A stretch of DNA of 64,000 bases from an uncultured Thermoproteaceae archaeon (GTDB lineage: Archaea > Thermoproteota > Thermoprotei > Thermoproteales > Thermocladiaceae): contig CAZNTG010000007.1 of the NCBI GenBank assembly GCA_964575955.1, positions 65,277 through 129,276 on the forward strand, written 5' to 3'. Shown in pieces: positions 52,979 to 55,907 of this stretch. How positions within the stretch are numbered: position 1 is the first letter of the stretch; the number at the start of each line of letters is the position of its first letter. The notes below the pieces were generated by a model. That model made no database searches, was not told the origin of the DNA, and saw nothing but the letters and a program-made list of their open reading frames with translations. The translations under genes were made by a program, and so were the position numbers.

Positions 52979-53548
52979 ATGATATACATCCCTGAGAGAA
53001 AGTTTGATAGAGTTGGAAAGTTGTTGCTTTATGCAAATTTTGTATTTATAATATTCATAGTTTTATTATCAATATTCTTCTACTATACATTGCCTGATGT
53101 TGTACCTGTACATTTTGATTATAGAGGACTTCCAGATTCTTATGGTAGTAAGATTGTCATACTCTACATTGCTATGGCTTTAATATCTGCACAGATAATT
53201 CTTCTATTGGTTGTGGTTTATAGATTTAAGATTGTTAATAAGTATCCATATTTAGTAAGTTATCCATTAATAACGATATTGATAGGTAGTGATAGGATAA
53301 GTCCAGATAGAAAATCTCACTATATTAATGAGATTGGTAAGGTAACATTGATAGAAAATTTGTTACTAGGTATTTTAAATGTGTATATTCTATACGATAC
53401 TTACATATCTATGATATGTAGATATGTGGTATATCCACTATGGACTGTAGTATTTATGATAATTCCAATAGTTATATATCCAATAATTGCTTATAGAAGA
53501 CTGTACTCTAGATTGAAGAGTGAGATTGACGGCCCCGCCGGGATTTGA
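52979..53548 (+). CDS. DUF1648 (SdpI-like) membrane protein
   Basis: YYTLPDVVPVHFDYRGLPDSYGSK; four TMs; stop lies inside antisense tRNA. Confidence 0.8.
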   Translation: MIYIPERKFDRVGKLLLYANFVFIIFIVLLSIFFYYTLPDVVPVHFDYRGLPDSYGSKIVILYIAMALISAQIILLLVVVYRFKIVNKYPYLVSYPLITILIGSDRISPDRKSHYINEIGKVTLIENLLLGILNVYILYDTYISMICRYVVYPLWTVVFMIIPIVIYPIIAYRRLYSRLKSEIDGPAGI

Positions 53549-53603
53549 ACCCGGGACCAGCGGCTCCGGTGGCCGCCGCTCTTCCTGGCTGAGCTACGGG
53601 GCC
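53530..53603 (-). tRNA. tRNA-Arg(CCG) with A at position 33; CCA not encoded
   Basis: Revcomp GGCCCCG-TAGCTCAG...GCGGC-CACCGGA-GCCGC...GGTTCAAATCC...CGGGGCC-G. Confidence 0.9.
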
Positions 53604-53644
53604 TTTAATCATGTTTTTATACTGTGTATAATATCTATTTCTGT

Positions 53645-53693
53645 ATGATGAACATGGGAACGACAGATTGGTGAAGATGGCTTGATATGCTGA
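53645..53693 (+). ncRNA. Box C/D sRNA
   Basis: ATGATGA-ACATGGGAACGA-CAGA-TTG-GTGAAGA-TGGCTTGATATG-CTGA. Confidence 0.85.
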
Positions 53694-53727
53694 TTTGTTA
53701 AATACGTGCTAGAGTTTTAGTATATCA

Positions 53728-53757
53728 ATGATGAGCGCTCTGTATCTTAGGTAGATG
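53728..53757 (+). ncRNA. 5' half of a box C/D sRNA interrupted by the TnpB element
   Basis: ATGATGA-GCGCTCTGTAT-CTTA-GGTAG-ATG| joins |ATAA-ACTCGGATACGG-CTGA at 55368-55387. Confidence 0.7.
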
Positions 53758-53951
53758 CTGAGAAAGAACCCGGGTTTCTGTCCGCATATGCTTTCATGTG
53801 TGCATATGCGGTTTTTTCTTCTCATTCTTTCGGGTCTTCTGTTCCATCTTCATAAACCCGTGCCTCGTGGAGTCCCCTACTCGAGGTTTATCCGTGGGAC
53901 GGGAACTTCAGCCCCACGGACACATCCCTCGGTTCAGGAACCCCACGGTAC
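53740..53951 (-). ncRNA. Putative TnpB omega-RNA (scaffold 53951-53758 plus flanking guide)
   Basis: Hairpins CCGCATATGC/GCATATGCGG, TCCGTGGG/CCCACGGA, CCTCG/CGAGG inside ATAAACC/GGTTTAT; BRE-TATA GAGAAAAG-TTTAAA about 29 nt upstream on the minus strand. Confidence 0.65.
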
Positions 53952-53952
53952 A

Positions 53953-54026
53953 TTAGAAACCTTGTTTAACAGGATTTAAACTTTTCTCTAACGAAAAGGT
54001 TAGAAACCTCAGGGGCATTTTCTAAC
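53953..54026. promoter_or_regulatory. Divergent promoters with operator-like repeats
   Basis: TTAGAAACCT at 53953-53962 and 54000-54009; inverted repeat GTTAGAAA (53999-54006) / TTTCTAAC (54019-54026); TTTAAA at 53975-53980. Confidence 0.6.
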
Positions 54027-54028
54027 GT

Positions 54029-54217
54029 ATGAAGACTCTTGTTGCTATAGGCAAGATATACAAGTTTGGGGACAAGGTACAGATCTATGTTCAGGCAGAC
54101 TATGCTCAATTGTTTGAGGAACATATAAACAAGCCATGTCAACTAATTGTCCTAGTTCCTGAAAACGAAGCTGAGGAACTTGTCCTACAGAAACAGTTTG
54201 CAAGAAGAAAACAATGA
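54029..54217 (+). CDS. Small AbrB/MazE-like swapped-hairpin protein
   Basis: IGKIYKFGDKVQIYVQADYAQLFE...KPCQLIVLV pattern; ATGA overlap with tnpB. Confidence 0.6.
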   Translation: MKTLVAIGKIYKFGDKVQIYVQADYAQLFEEHINKPCQLIVLVPENEAEELVLQKQFARRKQ

Positions 54218-55371
54218 GCTACAGAACTATTAATTTACCATTCAAACTGTCGGGAGATGTTGCAAATAAACTAATCTTCACAGCATGGATGTTTAGGAGC
54301 GCAGTAACGACAGTATTTGAAAAAGTCAAACAGATTTGCAATGGTTATCCAACAAAGAGTTTTATCGAAAAGAATTTTGCAGATGTTGCAAAGAGGTTTC
54401 TACCCCTAGCACATTATGCTTATACTGCATGCAGATTAGTATACGAAATCTGTGCAAGTTGTAGAGAACTCAAGGTACCTCTACAAGATGTCGAATTTAG
54501 CAACTGGCTCTTTGTCGAATGTAGAGGTGACCCTAGTGCAAAAGGTAATCAAGGAATAAAACTACTAGACTTAACAACATGTAGGGCAAAGCTCTTAGTT
54601 GAACATGGTAGACTTAGCGAGTTCACCTTTAAGGTCACCCTACCCAAGTCAAGACGTTTCAGATACATGCTAGAGGAACTTCTACAATTATGTCAGGTAA
54701 AGAAGGCAAGCTATGATGCTAGACTGTACATTAACTCTTACTGTCCAAATAGGGTTTATGGTGTCTTACAAGTAACTGTTCTTGAACATATTTGGAGAAA
54801 GTATGTGCAAAGAGACTCTGAAGTAATTACTCCAAGAGATGCTGAGTATGTGCTTGGGTTTGATGTAAATGCGGATAATATTGCATACTGTTTAGTAGAT
54901 CTTGATGGCAAGCTAGTTGAGCATGGTGCAATTTACTTTACGCACCTAGTCACGCAGGGTAGATGCAGTAAAGGTGCTAGGGGTTTTGTCATCAGGGAGC
55001 TTCACAAGCTCTTTGCAGAGCAGAAACTGTACAGGGAGAGGAAGTTCGTAGTTGCAGTAGAGAATCCAGAGGTTCTGAGCAAGTTAAAGCTTGTGTGGAT
55101 AAGGCATGGAGAGAGAAAACATGAACATTATAACTACTGGGTCTCAATCTTCAGACCATCACTTGCACACAACATTGTGCAAGCAGCAGATGAATGGGGA
55201 ATAACATGTATATTCGTTAATCCTAGAGGAACAACACACTCAGGAGAACATAAGCAGATAATGAAAACATTCGGAATAGATAGACACAGAGCATCAGCCT
55301 ACCTGATAGCAAAGAGAGCACTAGAACAACTTAGACAGGGCAAGAATATACAAACATATTCGCTCATATAA
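54214..55371 (+). CDS. tnpB: TnpB-related RuvC protein lacking the zinc finger
   Basis: RuvC-I VLGFDVN, RuvC-II VAVENP, VNPRGTT, RuvC-III variant DRHRASAYLIAKRAL; no CxxC pairs. Confidence 0.85.
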   Translation: MSYRTINLPFKLSGDVANKLIFTAWMFRSAVTTVFEKVKQICNGYPTKSFIEKNFADVAKRFLPLAHYAYTACRLVYEICASCRELKVPLQDVEFSNWLFVECRGDPSAKGNQGIKLLDLTTCRAKLLVEHGRLSEFTFKVTLPKSRRFRYMLEELLQLCQVKKASYDARLYINSYCPNRVYGVLQVTVLEHIWRKYVQRDSEVITPRDAEYVLGFDVNADNIAYCLVDLDGKLVEHGAIYFTHLVTQGRCSKGARGFVIRELHKLFAEQKLYRERKFVVAVENPEVLSKLKLVWIRHGERKHEHYNYWVSIFRPSLAHNIVQAADEWGITCIFVNPRGTTHSGEHKQIMKTFGIDRHRASAYLIAKRALEQLRQGKNIQTYSLI

Positions 55372-55387
55372 ACTCGGATACGGCTGA
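55368..55387 (+). ncRNA. 3' half of the interrupted box C/D sRNA
   Basis: ATAA-ACTCGGATACGG-CTGA, an orphan 12-nt guide plus D box. Confidence 0.65.
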
Positions 55388-55388
55388 T

Positions 55389-55439
55389 TCAGCTAACTCT
55401 GACATCTTCATTATTTCTGTTTGGCGAAGCTTTCATCAC
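55389..55439 (-). ncRNA. Box C/D sRNA; D guide matches 23S helix 69
   Basis: Revcomp GTGATGA-AAGCTTCGCCAAA-CAGA-AATA-ATGAAGA-TGTCAGAGTTAG-CTGA; GTCAGAGTTA is complementary to recalled archaeal 23S UAACUCUGAC. Confidence 0.87.
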
Positions 55440-55451
55440 TTCACACTTCTA

Positions 55452-55907
55452 CTATAGTATCTTTTCAGCTATTTGAAGATTTATTGGATGCATACATGGT
55501 ATCTCTCTTATACCTTTCAAATTGTTTATAAACTTCATTAACTCATCTTCAGATTTCTCTTTAACTAGTTTAGATACCTTATCTATAACATTCCTAATCT
55601 TATCTTCGAGATTATTATAAATCTTCTCAGCTTCCTCTCTATTAGAGATCTTGTAAACTCCACCTTCTTGCTTCACTATCTTTGTATCATTTATCAATTC
55701 ATCAAGAACATTTTGAACATCATGTCTATTATCAGGATATATAGAGTAGTGATATTTTTTCCATTGAAGTCCTGTTATAGGTCTACCGATATCTACTTGA
55801 GATACATAATCTACGAGAAGTAGAAATTGAAACAGTTTTGTTCTACTCAACCCATCACACCTATATATTCCAGATAGAACTATCTCAGTCAAACACGTCA
55901 TACACAT
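55452..55907 (-). CDS. Panacea/SocA (DUF4065)-like antitoxin, divergent
   Basis: RTKLFQFLLLVD...GRPITGLQWKKYHYSIY resembles TKL.KLLY..D...G.PITG......YGP. Confidence 0.6.
   Translation of the reverse strand: MCMTCLTEIVLSGIYRCDGLSRTKLFQFLLLVDYVSQVDIGRPITGLQWKKYHYSIYPDNRHDVQNVLDELINDTKIVKQEGGVYKISNREEAEKIYNNLEDKIRNVIDKVSKLVKEKSEDELMKFINNLKGIREIPCMHPINLQIAEKIL

What the first reader, a model, noticed from the sequence alone, without database searches (positions are those of the whole stretch)
53728..55387. TnpB element inserted inside a box C/D sRNA gene; excision restores the sRNA
Seen: deleting 53758-55367 gives ATGATGA-GCGCTCTGTAT-CTTA-GGTAG-ATG|ATAA-ACTCGGATACGG-CTGA, a 50-nt C/D'/C'/D sRNA with the same spacing as the other sRNAs here. 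The junction splits C' (ATGATAA), which itself supplies most of the TTTAT motif. The element end (TCAG, read CTGA on +) also gives the orphaned C box a new D box: ATGATGA-23nt-CTGA. Inference: C'-type boxes could act as targets, scarless excision would switch the guide back on, and the omega-RNA guide is antisense to the sRNA 5' half.
Basis: partly seen in the sequence, partly recalled or inferred. Interest (0 to 1): 0.8.

Follow-up and report, generated by a model that had tools for sequence, protein, structure and literature searches.

The report
Mobile nuclease gene splits a guide-RNA gene

Summary
Partly right. The element is 53773-55382 (3-nt CGG ambiguity). It lies between the D guide and the D box (CTGA, 55384-55387). 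Intact homologues in 4 of 6 same-genus genomes run straight from the D guide into CTGA. The C' box (ATGCTGA, 53755-53761) is native and unbroken.

The 385-aa protein matches no model in the local Pfam copy. It has a Cas12f/TnpB fold, a conserved D/E/D triad and no zinc finger. Its family is PF27229 "SSO2105_N".

Every homologue has a conserved structured RNA upstream of the gene, on the opposite strand. That RNA ends exactly at the element boundary in a K-turn or box C/D-like module, and shares a palindromic TATA box with the gene. I read it as a divergently encoded omega-RNA whose guide is antisense to the sRNA.

Preference for C/D genes is unproven: 3 of 75 insertions, against 0.09-3.3 expected. 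A reversible switch is unsupported: G000 has no Y1 transposase, and no empty-site contig was found.

The parts
53728..53772 (+). 5' part (45 nt) of box C/D sRNA 'B'. C box ATGATGA 53728-53734; D' guide 53735-53745; D' box CTTA 53746-53749; spacer 53750-53754; C' box ATGCTGA 53755-53761; D guide from 53762.
   Evidence: Sequence. Intact homologues in G001, G002, G004 and G003 (alignment A6).
55383..55387 (+). 3' end of sRNA 'B': the last guide G plus the D box CTGA (55384-55387).
   Evidence: In A6 this stretch aligns with the ...CCCGG/T-CTGA of the four intact homologues.
53773..55382. Inserted element, 1610 bp. The ends are ambiguous by 3 nt (CGG at both junctions). I saw no terminal inverted repeat when reading the two ends (no repeat search was run). 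There is no target duplication beyond the ambiguous CGG.
   Evidence: Homology to intact sRNAs ends and resumes here. The left-end motif GGTYTC is shared by 10 of 10 class W relatives. The right-end tail is shared with paralogues.
53773..53951 (-). Structured RNA (predicted omega-RNA-like scaffold) read on the minus strand. Its 3' end is at the element boundary. The 5' end is inferred from promoter geometry. Features in + coordinates: terminal stem 53773-53776 with 53855-53859; D-like box CAGA 53777-53780; hairpin 53782-53811; C-like box AUGAAGA 53847-53853.
   Evidence: Minus strand -83.4 kcal/mol, z -8.65; plus strand -63.0, z -4.19. Class W alignment: covariation 0.406 against 0.216 in shuffles, 0 of 500 shuffles as high. 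No T5+ runs on this strand.
53753..53772 (-). Predicted guide segment: the flank directly 3' of the RNA scaffold, antisense to the D guide and C' box of sRNA 'B'. The 20-nt length is assumed.
   Evidence: Inference by analogy with TnpB omega-RNAs, whose guide is the flank next to the transposon end. No RNA data.
53975..53980 (.). Palindromic TATA-like hexamer TTTAAA between the RNA and the genes: a candidate bidirectional promoter.
   Evidence: In 59 of 63 class M loci such a hexamer lies between RNA and gene. Its centre is 24-27 nt from the RNA's 5' edge in 52 of them (median 26) and a median of 25 nt from the start codon.
54029..54217 (+). 62-aa ORF, overlapping the start of the nuclease gene by 4 nt. 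Function unknown.
   Evidence: A counterpart is present in the window and in all 10 class W loci of the set, and in no class M locus as a convincing ORF. No Pfam hit. Model pLDDT 86. No Foldseek PDB match at E <= 0.001.
54214..55371 (+). 385-aa TnpB/Cas12f-fold RuvC nuclease gene of family PF27229 'SSO2105_N'. Putative catalytic D217, E283, D356. No zinc-finger cysteines.
   Evidence: AF2 pLDDT 87.5. Foldseek top hit AsCas12f 8j3r_A, E 2.4e-8, 60 matches at E <= 0.001 including Cas12f/k/m, Fanzor2, ISFba1 TnpB and RuvC. D217 and E283 are invariant in 29 sequences. Atlas family name.
55344..55361 (.). Sub-terminal hairpin GAATAT-ACAAAC-ATATTC, 21 nt inside the right end and overlapping the 3' end of the ORF.
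   Evidence: Sequence. Largely conserved in the two paralogous right ends in this genome. Its role as a recombination site is only inferred.
53812..53817 (+). T6 run after the hairpin, on the plus strand. It would end read-through from the sRNA promoter. This implies a truncated, D-box-less sRNA transcript and argues against a long plus-strand RNA.
   Evidence: Sequence. T5+ runs occur on the plus strand in 9 of 10 class W RNA regions and on the minus strand in 0 of 10. That oligo-T terminates archaeal transcription is established knowledge.

Best explanation
A 1610-bp IS-like element (53773-55382) is inserted between the D guide and the D box of a box C/D methylation-guide sRNA gene. This cuts off the D box and probably inactivates the sRNA. 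The element has three parts: a compact TnpB/Cas12f-fold RuvC nuclease without a zinc finger (385 aa, family PF27229), a 62-aa ORF of unknown role, and a structured RNA of about 180 nt. The RNA is transcribed in the opposite direction from a shared palindromic TATA box. Its 3' end sits exactly at the element's left boundary and carries a K-turn-type motif, which in this subfamily looks like a box C/box D pair with a terminal stem. I propose that this RNA is the family's omega-RNA. Transcription would run out of the element into the flank, so the guide would be the flank sequence, here antisense to the sRNA. The nuclease would then recognise the uninterrupted site next to a short motif (5'-AGC on the RNA strand), as canonical TnpB does, and the K-turn would recruit host L7Ae. 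Shown: the insertion point, the fold, the conserved RNA and its strand, and the motifs. Inferred: transcription itself, guide use, cleavage, L7Ae binding and the means of mobility.
For: Insertion. Intact homologues in 4 of 6 same-genus genomes continue from the D guide straight into CTGA. The window's homology breaks at 53772/3 and CTGA resumes at 55384. Element DNA gave no match in 5 of those 6 genomes and only a 76-nt match at a contig edge in G002.

Protein. pLDDT 87.5. Cas12f/TnpB fold, best E 2.4e-8. D217 and E283 are invariant in 29 sequences. The family has copies in many places: 146 confirmed stretches in genomes and at least 459 in metagenomes, and 5 matches each in G008 and G017.

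RNA strand. The RNAalifold energy is -15.4 on the minus strand against -7.6 on the plus strand for class M, and -18.0 against -4.9 for class W. In the predicted pairs there are 101 G-U but only 7 A-C. Of 12 consensus pairs in 63 sequences, 11 show compensatory changes. The window folds at -83.4 kcal/mol (z -8.65) on minus and -63 (z -4.19) on plus. T5+ runs occur in 0 of 73 RNA regions on the minus strand and 16 of 73 on the plus strand. A palindromic TATA hexamer lies a median of 26 nt from the RNA edge and 25 nt from the start codon.

K-turn. A strict canonical pattern is met in 29 of 63 class M RNAs, with C-stem covariation (CCGU/ACGG, GCGU/ACGC, CCGC/GCGG). A further 23 of 63 have a symmetric GAGA/GAGA loop. 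All 10 class W RNAs end in CUGA (CAGA in the window) plus ACC, with an AUGAUGA-like box upstream.

Target motif. The right flank starts with GCT in 8 of 10 class W insertions. In the window the CT of that GCT is the D box, so it is flank and not element.
Against: There is no RNA evidence: no RNA run was listed and only contigs could be laid. Nuclease activity, guide use and L7Ae binding are untested. In class W the 5' half of the proposed terminal stem can also pair with a nearby GACC(C) repeat to form a local hairpin. The box C/box D pairing is therefore not the only fold, and its stem has just one covarying pair. In class M, 34 of 63 RNAs do not meet the strict K-turn pattern. No Y1 transposase was found in G000, and only 1 of 5 other carrier genomes has one, next to a canonical TnpB, so mobility is unexplained. 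The arrangement, with the RNA upstream and antisense, has no characterised precedent known to me among TnpB systems. The intact homologues are not in the same gene order: sRNA 'A' and 'B' are swapped relative to the window. They are therefore homologous genes, not a strict empty allele.
Confidence: 0.55

Rival explanations
1. The element is 53758-55367, it splits a C' box (ATGATAA) that supplies a TTTAT target motif, and C'-type boxes are the targets.
For: Deleting those coordinates gives a 50-nt string with C/D-like spacing. The deletion has the same length as the true one.
Against: Four intact homologues share 15-16 more nucleotides with the window beyond 53757, including the C' box and D guide. 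The supposed right-hand guide is the conserved tail of the element, including the ORF's stop codon. Relatives' left ends begin with GGTYTC, which is 53773 here.
Confidence: 0.02
2. The conserved upstream block is not a guide RNA. It would instead be the element's DNA end (hairpins for a single-strand transposase), or an antisense or leader RNA that only regulates the nuclease operon. The nuclease would act without a flank-derived guide.
For: IS200/IS605 ends do carry sub-terminal hairpins (established knowledge). The terminal hairpin lies at the very end of the element. No RNA data exist. The local literature passages I read describe antisense RNAs opposite transposase genes in Sulfolobus (PMC3432209, passages).
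Against: About 130-180 nt, far more than an end hairpin, are conserved with compensatory changes, strand-specific G-U pairs and no T-runs. The promoter spacing fits an RNA that starts at the edge of the conserved block. The block does not overlap the coding region, so it cannot pair with the ORF. TnpB/Cas12-fold proteins are RNA-guided wherever they have been tested (established knowledge).
Confidence: 0.2
3. Box C/D sRNA genes are preferred landing sites of this family. The cause could be the target motif, L7Ae/K-turn-mediated targeting, or homology between the element's C/D-like module and sRNA genes.
For: A regex sRNA detector calls an sRNA across the rejoined junction in 3 of 75 distinct insertions: the window, L055 and L153. 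It gives 126 hits in G000 against 5 in the reversed control. Two more insertions have an intact sRNA within 30 nt (L098, L088), and the window has a convergent sRNA 6 nt away. Against all flanking DNA, 0.09 are expected (P about 1e-4, or 0.003 without the discovery case). Against the whole G000 genome, 0.26 are expected.
Against: 28 of 75 insertions lie in non-ORF DNA, and sRNAs fill 4.4% of such DNA in G000. That null expects 3.3 of 75 (P = 0.65). With the flanks' non-ORF density, P is 0.057 once the discovery case is removed. The three insertion points differ (before the D box, after the C box, and at a C box with an ambiguous junction). The inferred target motif is only about 3 nt. The L055 sRNA could not be confirmed by a homologue (0 of 29 other genomes).
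Confidence: 0.2
4. The sRNA fragment and the element are adjacent through a rearrangement or through capture, not through a simple insertion. The sRNA would have been a dead remnant before the element arrived.
For: The local order of sRNA genes differs from that in the sister genomes (tRNA-B-A there, tRNA-A-B here). sRNA genes in this family of archaea are known to be rearranged (PMC6009581, passages).
Against: The break falls exactly at the element's two conserved termini. The missing D box stands directly at the other terminus. By chance that has a probability of about 1 in 256 per position.
Confidence: 0.05

Closest known systems
IS200/IS605-family TnpB with omega-RNA (for example ISDra2 TnpB; ISFba1 TnpB, PDB 8iaz)
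   Same: Compact RuvC nuclease of the same fold. A conserved structured RNA abuts one transposon end so that the flank can serve as guide. I saw no terminal inverted repeats on reading the ends (no repeat search was run) and there is no real target duplication. A short conserved motif lies on the opposite flank. Many diverged copies occur per genome.
   Different: No hit to the TnpB Pfam models. No zinc finger. The RNA lies upstream of the gene on the opposite strand and has its own (shared) promoter, instead of overlapping the gene's 3' end. It has a K-turn-type 3' module. There is no linked or consistently co-resident Y1 transposase.
Cas12f (type V-F CRISPR effectors, for example AsCas12f, PDB 8j3r)
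   Same: Best structural matches: E 2.4e-8, TM about 0.5. Similar size.
   Different: I saw no repeat-spacer array next to the gene in the window or in the upstream and downstream stretches printed for the loci (no repeat-finder was run). Sequence identity is 9-12%. The NCBIfam Cas12f2 match is only 12.9 bits against a cut-off of 450.
IscB/IsrB omega-RNA systems
   Same: The guide RNA gene lies upstream of the nuclease gene, at a transposon end.
   Different: Those RNAs are on the same strand as the gene, with the guide at the 5' end. The proteins have a different architecture (this is recalled knowledge, not tested here). Here four independent strand tests favour the opposite strand.
Archaeal box C/D sRNAs and other L7Ae-bound K-turn RNAs
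   Same: The interrupted gene is a typical member. The element's RNA carries C-like and D-like boxes with a terminal stem (class W), or a canonical K-turn (29 of 63 class M).
   Different: The element RNA is about 180 nt. Its 'guide' positions are occupied by a hairpin, and it lacks the 12-nt spacer layout. It is not a methylation guide by anatomy. L7Ae binding is untested.
MITE-like elements resembling C/D sRNAs in Pyrobaculum calidifontis (Lui et al. 2018, PMC6009581; passages seen)
   Same: Mobile DNA linked to C/D-box-like sequence in Thermoproteales.
   Different: Those are short non-coding inverted-repeat elements that are themselves sRNA-like. This is a 1.6-kb protein-coding element inserted into an sRNA gene.

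Membership tests
TnpB (IS200/IS605 accessory nuclease) | RuvC-like fold with a D-E-D catalytic triad | tested here: met
   Foldseek hits to Cas12f, Cas12k, Cas12m, Fanzor2, ISFba1 TnpB and RuvC; 60 matches at E <= 0.001. D217 and E283 are invariant in 29 homologues. D356 is conserved in most copies by my reading.
TnpB (IS200/IS605 accessory nuclease) | Match to the family's sequence models (OrfB_IS605, the zinc-ribbon/TNB domain) | tested here: not met
   0 Pfam families at E <= 0.1. The PF07282 search of G000 finds a different, canonical gene and not this one. No CxxC pairs in the C-terminal region (sequence).
TnpB (IS200/IS605 accessory nuclease) | Omega-RNA overlapping the 3' end of the gene on the same strand, with the guide beyond the right end | tested here: not met
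   The conserved structured RNA is 5' of the gene and on the opposite strand. Only 11 nt separate the stop codon from the right end.
IS200/IS605 transposon | Y1 (HUH) transposase TnpA in the element or the genome | tested here: not met
   PF01797: 0 hits in G000 (94.7% complete). It is found in 1 of 5 other carrier genomes, beside a canonical 439-aa TnpB.
IS200/IS605 transposon | No terminal inverted repeats, no target duplication, insertion next to a short specific motif | tested here: inconclusive
   I saw no inverted repeat on reading the two ends (no repeat search was run). Only an ambiguous 3-nt CGG stands at both junctions. GCT starts the right flank in 8 of 10 class W copies. The sample is small and the ends of class M are uncertain by a few nt.
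Box C/D sRNA (the interrupted gene) | C, D', C' and D boxes with guides of about 12 nt, and homologues in related genomes | tested here: met
   The boxes and spacers are met once the 1610 bp are set aside. Homologues are found in 4 of 6 same-genus genomes.
Box C/D sRNA (the interrupted gene) | A guide complementary to an rRNA or tRNA target | tested here: inconclusive
   No complement of 10 nt or more exists in the G000 assembly apart from the gene itself. rRNA genes may be missing from this 15-contig assembly.
K-turn RNA (L7Ae ligand) | C stem, 3-nt bulge, tandem G.A/A.G pairs, NC stem | tested here: inconclusive
   The strict pattern is met in 29 of 63 class M RNAs, with covarying stems. Class W and the window have a box C/box D form, but an alternative local hairpin exists. 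Protein binding cannot be tested here.

The most novel reading that the evidence does not exclude
A widespread, uncharacterised clade of zinc-finger-less TnpB-like nucleases in hyperthermophilic Thermoproteota (PF27229 'SSO2105_N') works with an omega-RNA that is encoded upstream of the gene on the opposite strand. A single palindromic TATA box drives both the RNA and the leaderless mRNA. The RNA ends in a K-turn or box C/D-like module that recruits the host's L7Ae, and perhaps more of the C/D RNP. That would make it an RNA-guided DNA nuclease that borrows the cell's methylation-guide machinery. It may also explain why copies turn up in or beside C/D sRNA genes, and why the class W module looks like a captured sRNA.
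Probability: 0.3. Interest if true: 0.85.

Novelty: new variant of a known kind. Interest (0 to 1): 0.55.

Why it matters
An insertion sequence inside an sRNA gene is, by itself, an ordinary event. It is worth recording because it removes one methylation guide from this organism. The element family is the more valuable result. Its nuclease has the TnpB/Cas12f fold but matches no model in the local Pfam copy; its only family tag, PF27229 'SSO2105_N', names an uncharacterised N-terminal domain. It is common in hot-spring and vent archaea (146 confirmed stretches in genomes, at least 459 in metagenomes). It always comes with a conserved RNA in an arrangement not described for TnpB in any paper my searches found. 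If the RNA is the guide, three things follow. The architecture of OMEGA systems is more flexible than thought. There would be a naturally thermostable 385-aa RNA-guided nuclease. And there would be a first link between transposon guide RNAs and the archaeal K-turn/L7Ae world.

Tried and rejected
- **Sequence-based naming of the 385-aa protein.** Pfam gave 0 families. NCBIfam gave only a 12.9-bit Cas12f2 match. PDB sequences gave nothing below E = 1. The plasmid collection gave one weak Priestia match and the phage collection none.
- **PF27229.** It is not in the local Pfam library. The name came from the Atlas.
- **Rfam on the whole window.** It found only 4 tRNAs at gathering score, so neither the sRNAs nor the element RNA belong to a curated family.
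- **Empty site in reads.** One source run and one small-share run were found, both held as contigs only. There was no joint across the element and no RNA holder was listed. This is uninformative.
- **Homologue of the second interrupted sRNA (L055).** None was found in the 29 other genomes of the family.
- **Targets of the sRNA 'B' guides in G000.** None was found.
- **Other copies of the element RNA in G000.** None was found by nhmmer.
- **The 62-aa ORF.** There was no Pfam hit for 8 homologues and no Foldseek match at E <= 0.001. The top rows (VapB1, MazE, E 2-5) are not significant, so my first impression of an AbrB-like fold is dropped.
- **Enrichment of C/D genes at insertion sites.** The result depends on the null and is left open. 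Before that count I dropped loci without a full-length gene, loci without at least 70 nt of flank on both sides, loci without a definable end (for example L065, L155, L185, L149), and duplicates of the same insertion. This left 75 of the 123 full-length loci (plus the window).
- **Earlier notes of this scan.** Nothing was found.
- **Literature.** I searched for 'TnpB + L7Ae + archaea', 'TnpB + kink-turn', 'SSO2105', 'L7Ae + transposase + antisense + Sulfolobus solfataricus', 'TnpB + Thermoproteota' and 'Pyrobaculum/box sRNA/transposase/K-turn'. No description of this family or arrangement came up. Supplements were closed, so tables of L7Ae-bound RNAs (PMC5539422) could not be checked.
Full report
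**1. What is at the coordinates**

The window is G000:C7:65277-129276, from a 1.52-Mb, 15-contig, AT-rich archaeal assembly that is 94.7% complete. Record titles of relatives place the wider family among Thermoproteaceae and Desulfurococcales.

From left to right the region holds:
- tRNA-Arg(CCG) on the minus strand, 53530-53603;
- an intact box C/D sRNA 'A' at 53645-53693, whose core is conserved in 9 of 40 other genomes of the order;
- the start of a second sRNA 'B' at 53728;
- a GC-rich non-coding stretch;
- a 62-aa ORF (54029-54217) and a 385-aa ORF (54214-55371);
- CTGA at 55384-55387;
- a convergent minus-strand sRNA 'C' at 55389-55439.

**2. The true junction**

A 15-nt pattern from the C box and D' guide of sRNA 'B' was searched in 31 genomes of the family. 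It hit the window, 4 of the 6 other same-genus genomes (G001, G002, G004 exactly; G003 with one mismatch), and two unrelated places (G008, G009). On inspection those two are not this sRNA.

The four homologues are complete sRNAs: C box, 11-nt D' guide, D' box, spacer, C' box (ATGCTGA, GTGCTGA or GTGACGA), a 12-nt D guide ending ...GAACCCGT or ...GAACCCGG, then CTGA.

Alignment A6 shows that the window follows them through its own C' box (ATGCTGA, 53755-53761) and D guide (GAAAGAACCCGG). It departs from them at 53773. The window's right junction (...ATACGG then CTGATT) aligns with their ...CCCGG/T CTGA.

The insertion therefore lies between the D guide and the D box. CGG stands at both junctions, so the element may start anywhere from 53771 to 53774. 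I use 53773-55382, for two reasons. All class W relatives begin with GGTYTC. The paralogous right ends in this genome share the tail up to about ...GGATNCG.

That is why it also produced a 50-nt product. Its 'C' box' and 'D guide' are element sequence, including the ORF's stop codon at 55369-55371.

**3. The protein**

No Pfam, NCBIfam or PDB-sequence match names it. The 5.8-billion-protein index holds only 36 relatives. Most carry PF27229, which the Atlas names 'SSO2105_N' and whose clusters are labelled hypothetical.

An AlphaFold model built from 29 homologues is confident (pLDDT 87.5). It matches Cas12f structures best (8j3r_A, E 2.4e-8). Cas12k, Cas12m, Fanzor2, ISFba1 TnpB and RuvC follow, with 60 matches at E <= 0.001.

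D217 (GFDVN) and E283 (VAVENP) are invariant. The third acidic residue (D356, in ...DRH...) is kept in most copies I read. The stretch where TnpB has its zinc ribbon holds no cysteine pairs.

So the fold and probable chemistry are TnpB-like. Membership of the defined TnpB families fails on sequence models and on the zinc finger.

**4. A family with many copies in many places**

- Degenerate-pattern scans confirmed 146 stretches in species-representative genomes. These are Thermoproteaceae, Caldivirga, Vulcanisaeta, Ignisphaera, Desulfurococcales and Acidilobaceae, plus one Thermococcus MAG and one Stygiolobus.
- At least 459 stretches were confirmed in metagenomes.
- G008 and G017 each gave 5 DNA matches.
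- G000 itself has the full copy, a 49%-identical paralogue cut by a contig end (C10), and a 58-nt right-end remnant (C8).
- Element DNA gave no match in 5 of the 6 same-genus genomes, and only a 76-nt match at a contig edge in G002.
- I saw no terminal inverted repeat when reading the two ends (no repeat search was run), and there is no duplication beyond the ambiguous CGG.
- No Y1 transposase is found in G000. Among five other carriers only G008 has one, and it sits beside a canonical 439-aa TnpB.

How the element moves is therefore open.

**5. The conserved RNA and its strand**

Upstream of every full-length homologue lies a GC-rich conserved block. There are two classes:
- class M, whose left end is R|CCGTTC...;
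- class W, which includes the window and whose left end is GGTYTC...

Four independent tests put the RNA on the strand opposite to the gene.
- **(i) Folding.** RNAalifold gives -15.4 against -7.6 kcal/mol for class M and -18.0 against -4.9 for class W. The window's 188 nt fold at -83.4 (z -8.65) on the minus strand and -63.0 (z -4.19) on the plus strand.
- **(ii) Wobble asymmetry.** The predicted pairs hold 101 G-U against 7 A-C. In the tool's own fold of 63 sequences, 11 of 12 pairs have compensatory changes and one pair is U-G in 45 of 63. On the other strand those would be mismatches.
- **(iii) Terminators.** T5+ runs occur in 0 of 73 RNA regions on the minus strand but in 16 of 73 on the plus strand, including 9 of 10 class W.
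- **(iv) Promoter geometry.** In 59 of 63 class M loci a palindromic TATA-like hexamer lies between RNA and gene. Its centre is 24-27 nt from the RNA's 5' edge in 52 of them, and a median of 25 nt from the start codon. This is the spacing expected for archaeal promoters firing in both directions: one product is a leaderless mRNA, the other the RNA. The window has TTTAAA at 53975-53980, which predicts an RNA start near 53951.

For class W, my structure has 85% of cells paired and a covariation score of 0.406, against 0.216 in shuffles (0 of 500 as high) and at most 0.244 when slid.

**6. The 3' module**

The RNA's last helix ends exactly at the element boundary.

In class M, 29 of 63 RNAs meet a strict K-turn pattern: a 4-bp C stem, a 3-nt bulge, GA, then GA plus the C stem on the other strand, and an NC stem. 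The C stem covaries. A further 23 have a symmetric GAGA/GAGA loop, and 11 are variants.

In class W the same place looks like a box C/D pair: an AUGAUGA-like box, then CUGA followed by (A/G)ACC at the very end, with GGUU/AACC or GGUC/GACC as terminal stem. The window has AUGAAGA (53847-53853) and CAGA (53777-53780), with GGGUU/AACCC.

One caveat applies. The 5' half of that stem can also pair with a nearby GACC(C) repeat, so the C/D-type fold is plausible but not unique.

K-turns are the binding site of archaeal L7Ae (established knowledge; PMC5539422 abstract and passages). Binding here is an inference.

**7. Likely mechanism**

By analogy with TnpB, an RNA that runs out of the element across its end acquires flank sequence as a guide. 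Here the flank is 53772 downward, which is antisense to the D guide and C' box of sRNA 'B'.

The opposite flank would supply the target-adjacent motif. The right flank begins with GCT in 8 of 10 class W insertions. In the window the CT of that GCT is the D box, so it belongs to the flank and not to the element. On the RNA strand this reads 5'-AGC directly before the target. That is the geometry of a TnpB target-adjacent motif.

Cutting of the uninterrupted site, use of the guide and any homing remain untested.

On the plus strand, the sRNA promoter now reads into the element's hairpin and T6 run (53782-53817). The likely product is a truncated, D-box-less RNA.

**8. Are C/D genes preferred targets?**

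I mapped both ends for 75 distinct insertions (74 plus the window). Left ends came from profile matches. Right ends came from where related copies stop aligning, with 17 of them fixed by eye.

A regex detector for complete sRNAs finds 126 hits in G000 against 5 in the reversed control. It calls an sRNA across the rejoined junction in 3 of 75: the window, L055 (cut just after the C box), and L153. The L153 junction is ambiguous, because a 10-nt string that includes the C box stands at both ends. Intact sRNAs lie within 30 nt in L098 and L088, and 6 nt away in the window.

| Null model | Expected of 75 |
|---|---|
| All flanking DNA | 0.09 |
| Whole G000 genome | 0.26 |
| Non-ORF flanking DNA | 0.39 |
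| Non-ORF DNA of G000 (4.4% is sRNA) | 3.3 |

28 of 75 insertions are in non-ORF DNA. Without the discovery case, P ranges from 0.003 to 0.84 across these nulls. The idea is alive but unproven, and the three cuts do not share a box.

**9. Verdict**

It is a real insertion in a real sRNA gene, with a wrong junction. Exact removal would restore the gene, and the RNA is antisense. Split C' boxes as targets, a new D box and a working switch are not supported.

The insertion itself is ordinary. The element family, with its divergently encoded K-turn RNA, is the part that deserves follow-up.

Noticed in passing
window 53645-53693 (+): Intact box C/D sRNA 'A'. Its core matched in 9 of 40 other genomes of the order, across three families (81-90% identity over about 45 nt).
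   Followed up: partly
window 55389-55439 (-): Box C/D sRNA 'C', convergent with sRNA 'B'. Their D boxes are 1 nt apart and form a GCTGA-T-TCAGC palindrome. A homologue is present in G006:C67.
   Followed up: partly
L030, L031, L032 (G004, G002, G001) against window 53530-53760: Gene order differs. The sister genomes have tRNA-Arg, then sRNA 'B', then sRNA 'A'. The window has tRNA-Arg, 'A', then 'B'. In G003 sRNA 'B' sits in another context altogether. sRNA genes have been shuffled within the genus.
   Followed up: no
G000 whole genome: A simple regex for complete C/D sRNAs gives 126 hits against 5 in the reversed-sequence control. They cover 4.4% of DNA outside open frames of 80 aa or more. 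This is a very sRNA-rich small genome.
   Followed up: partly
G000:C10:55325-56059 (L002/L005) and G000:C8:26747-26804 (L003): C10 holds a second, 49%-identical copy of the nuclease gene, cut by the contig end and with one TAA inside the match. C8 holds a 58-nt orphan right end. Only one copy of the RNA module exists in the assembly.
   Followed up: partly
L153 (metagenome contig), element ends at 1272 and about 2620: The 10-nt string TGTGATGAGC, which includes a C box, stands at both junctions. The element's usual terminal GTAACAGCC is replaced by GTGATGAGCC. A complete C/D sRNA follows directly. Possible causes are conversion between the ends, a duplication, or selection of a site that resembles the element's own end.
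   Followed up: partly
L098, 20-70 nt right of the element: An intact C/D sRNA lies 20 nt from the right end, and a further C-box-like start lies about 30 nt beyond it.
   Followed up: no
window 55452-55907 (-): A 151-aa ORF with a SocA/Panacea antitoxin-like domain (E 3.7e-6, above the Pfam cut-off) lies directly right of the sRNA cluster.
   Followed up: no
Atlas clusters near the 385-aa protein: Feature-space neighbours include an 8041-member cluster, 59% from viruses (Uroviricota), in which 44% of members carry PF27229. A bacterial 'TnpB-related' cluster appears as a structural neighbour. The family may have phage relatives.
   Followed up: no
class W loci (L055, L109, L135, L136, L139, L141-L143, L145) and window 54029-54217: A 45-65-aa ORF sits between the RNA and the nuclease gene in the window and in all 10 class W loci, and in no class M locus as a convincing ORF. 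It is only 15-27% identical among copies and matches no known family or fold.
   Followed up: yes
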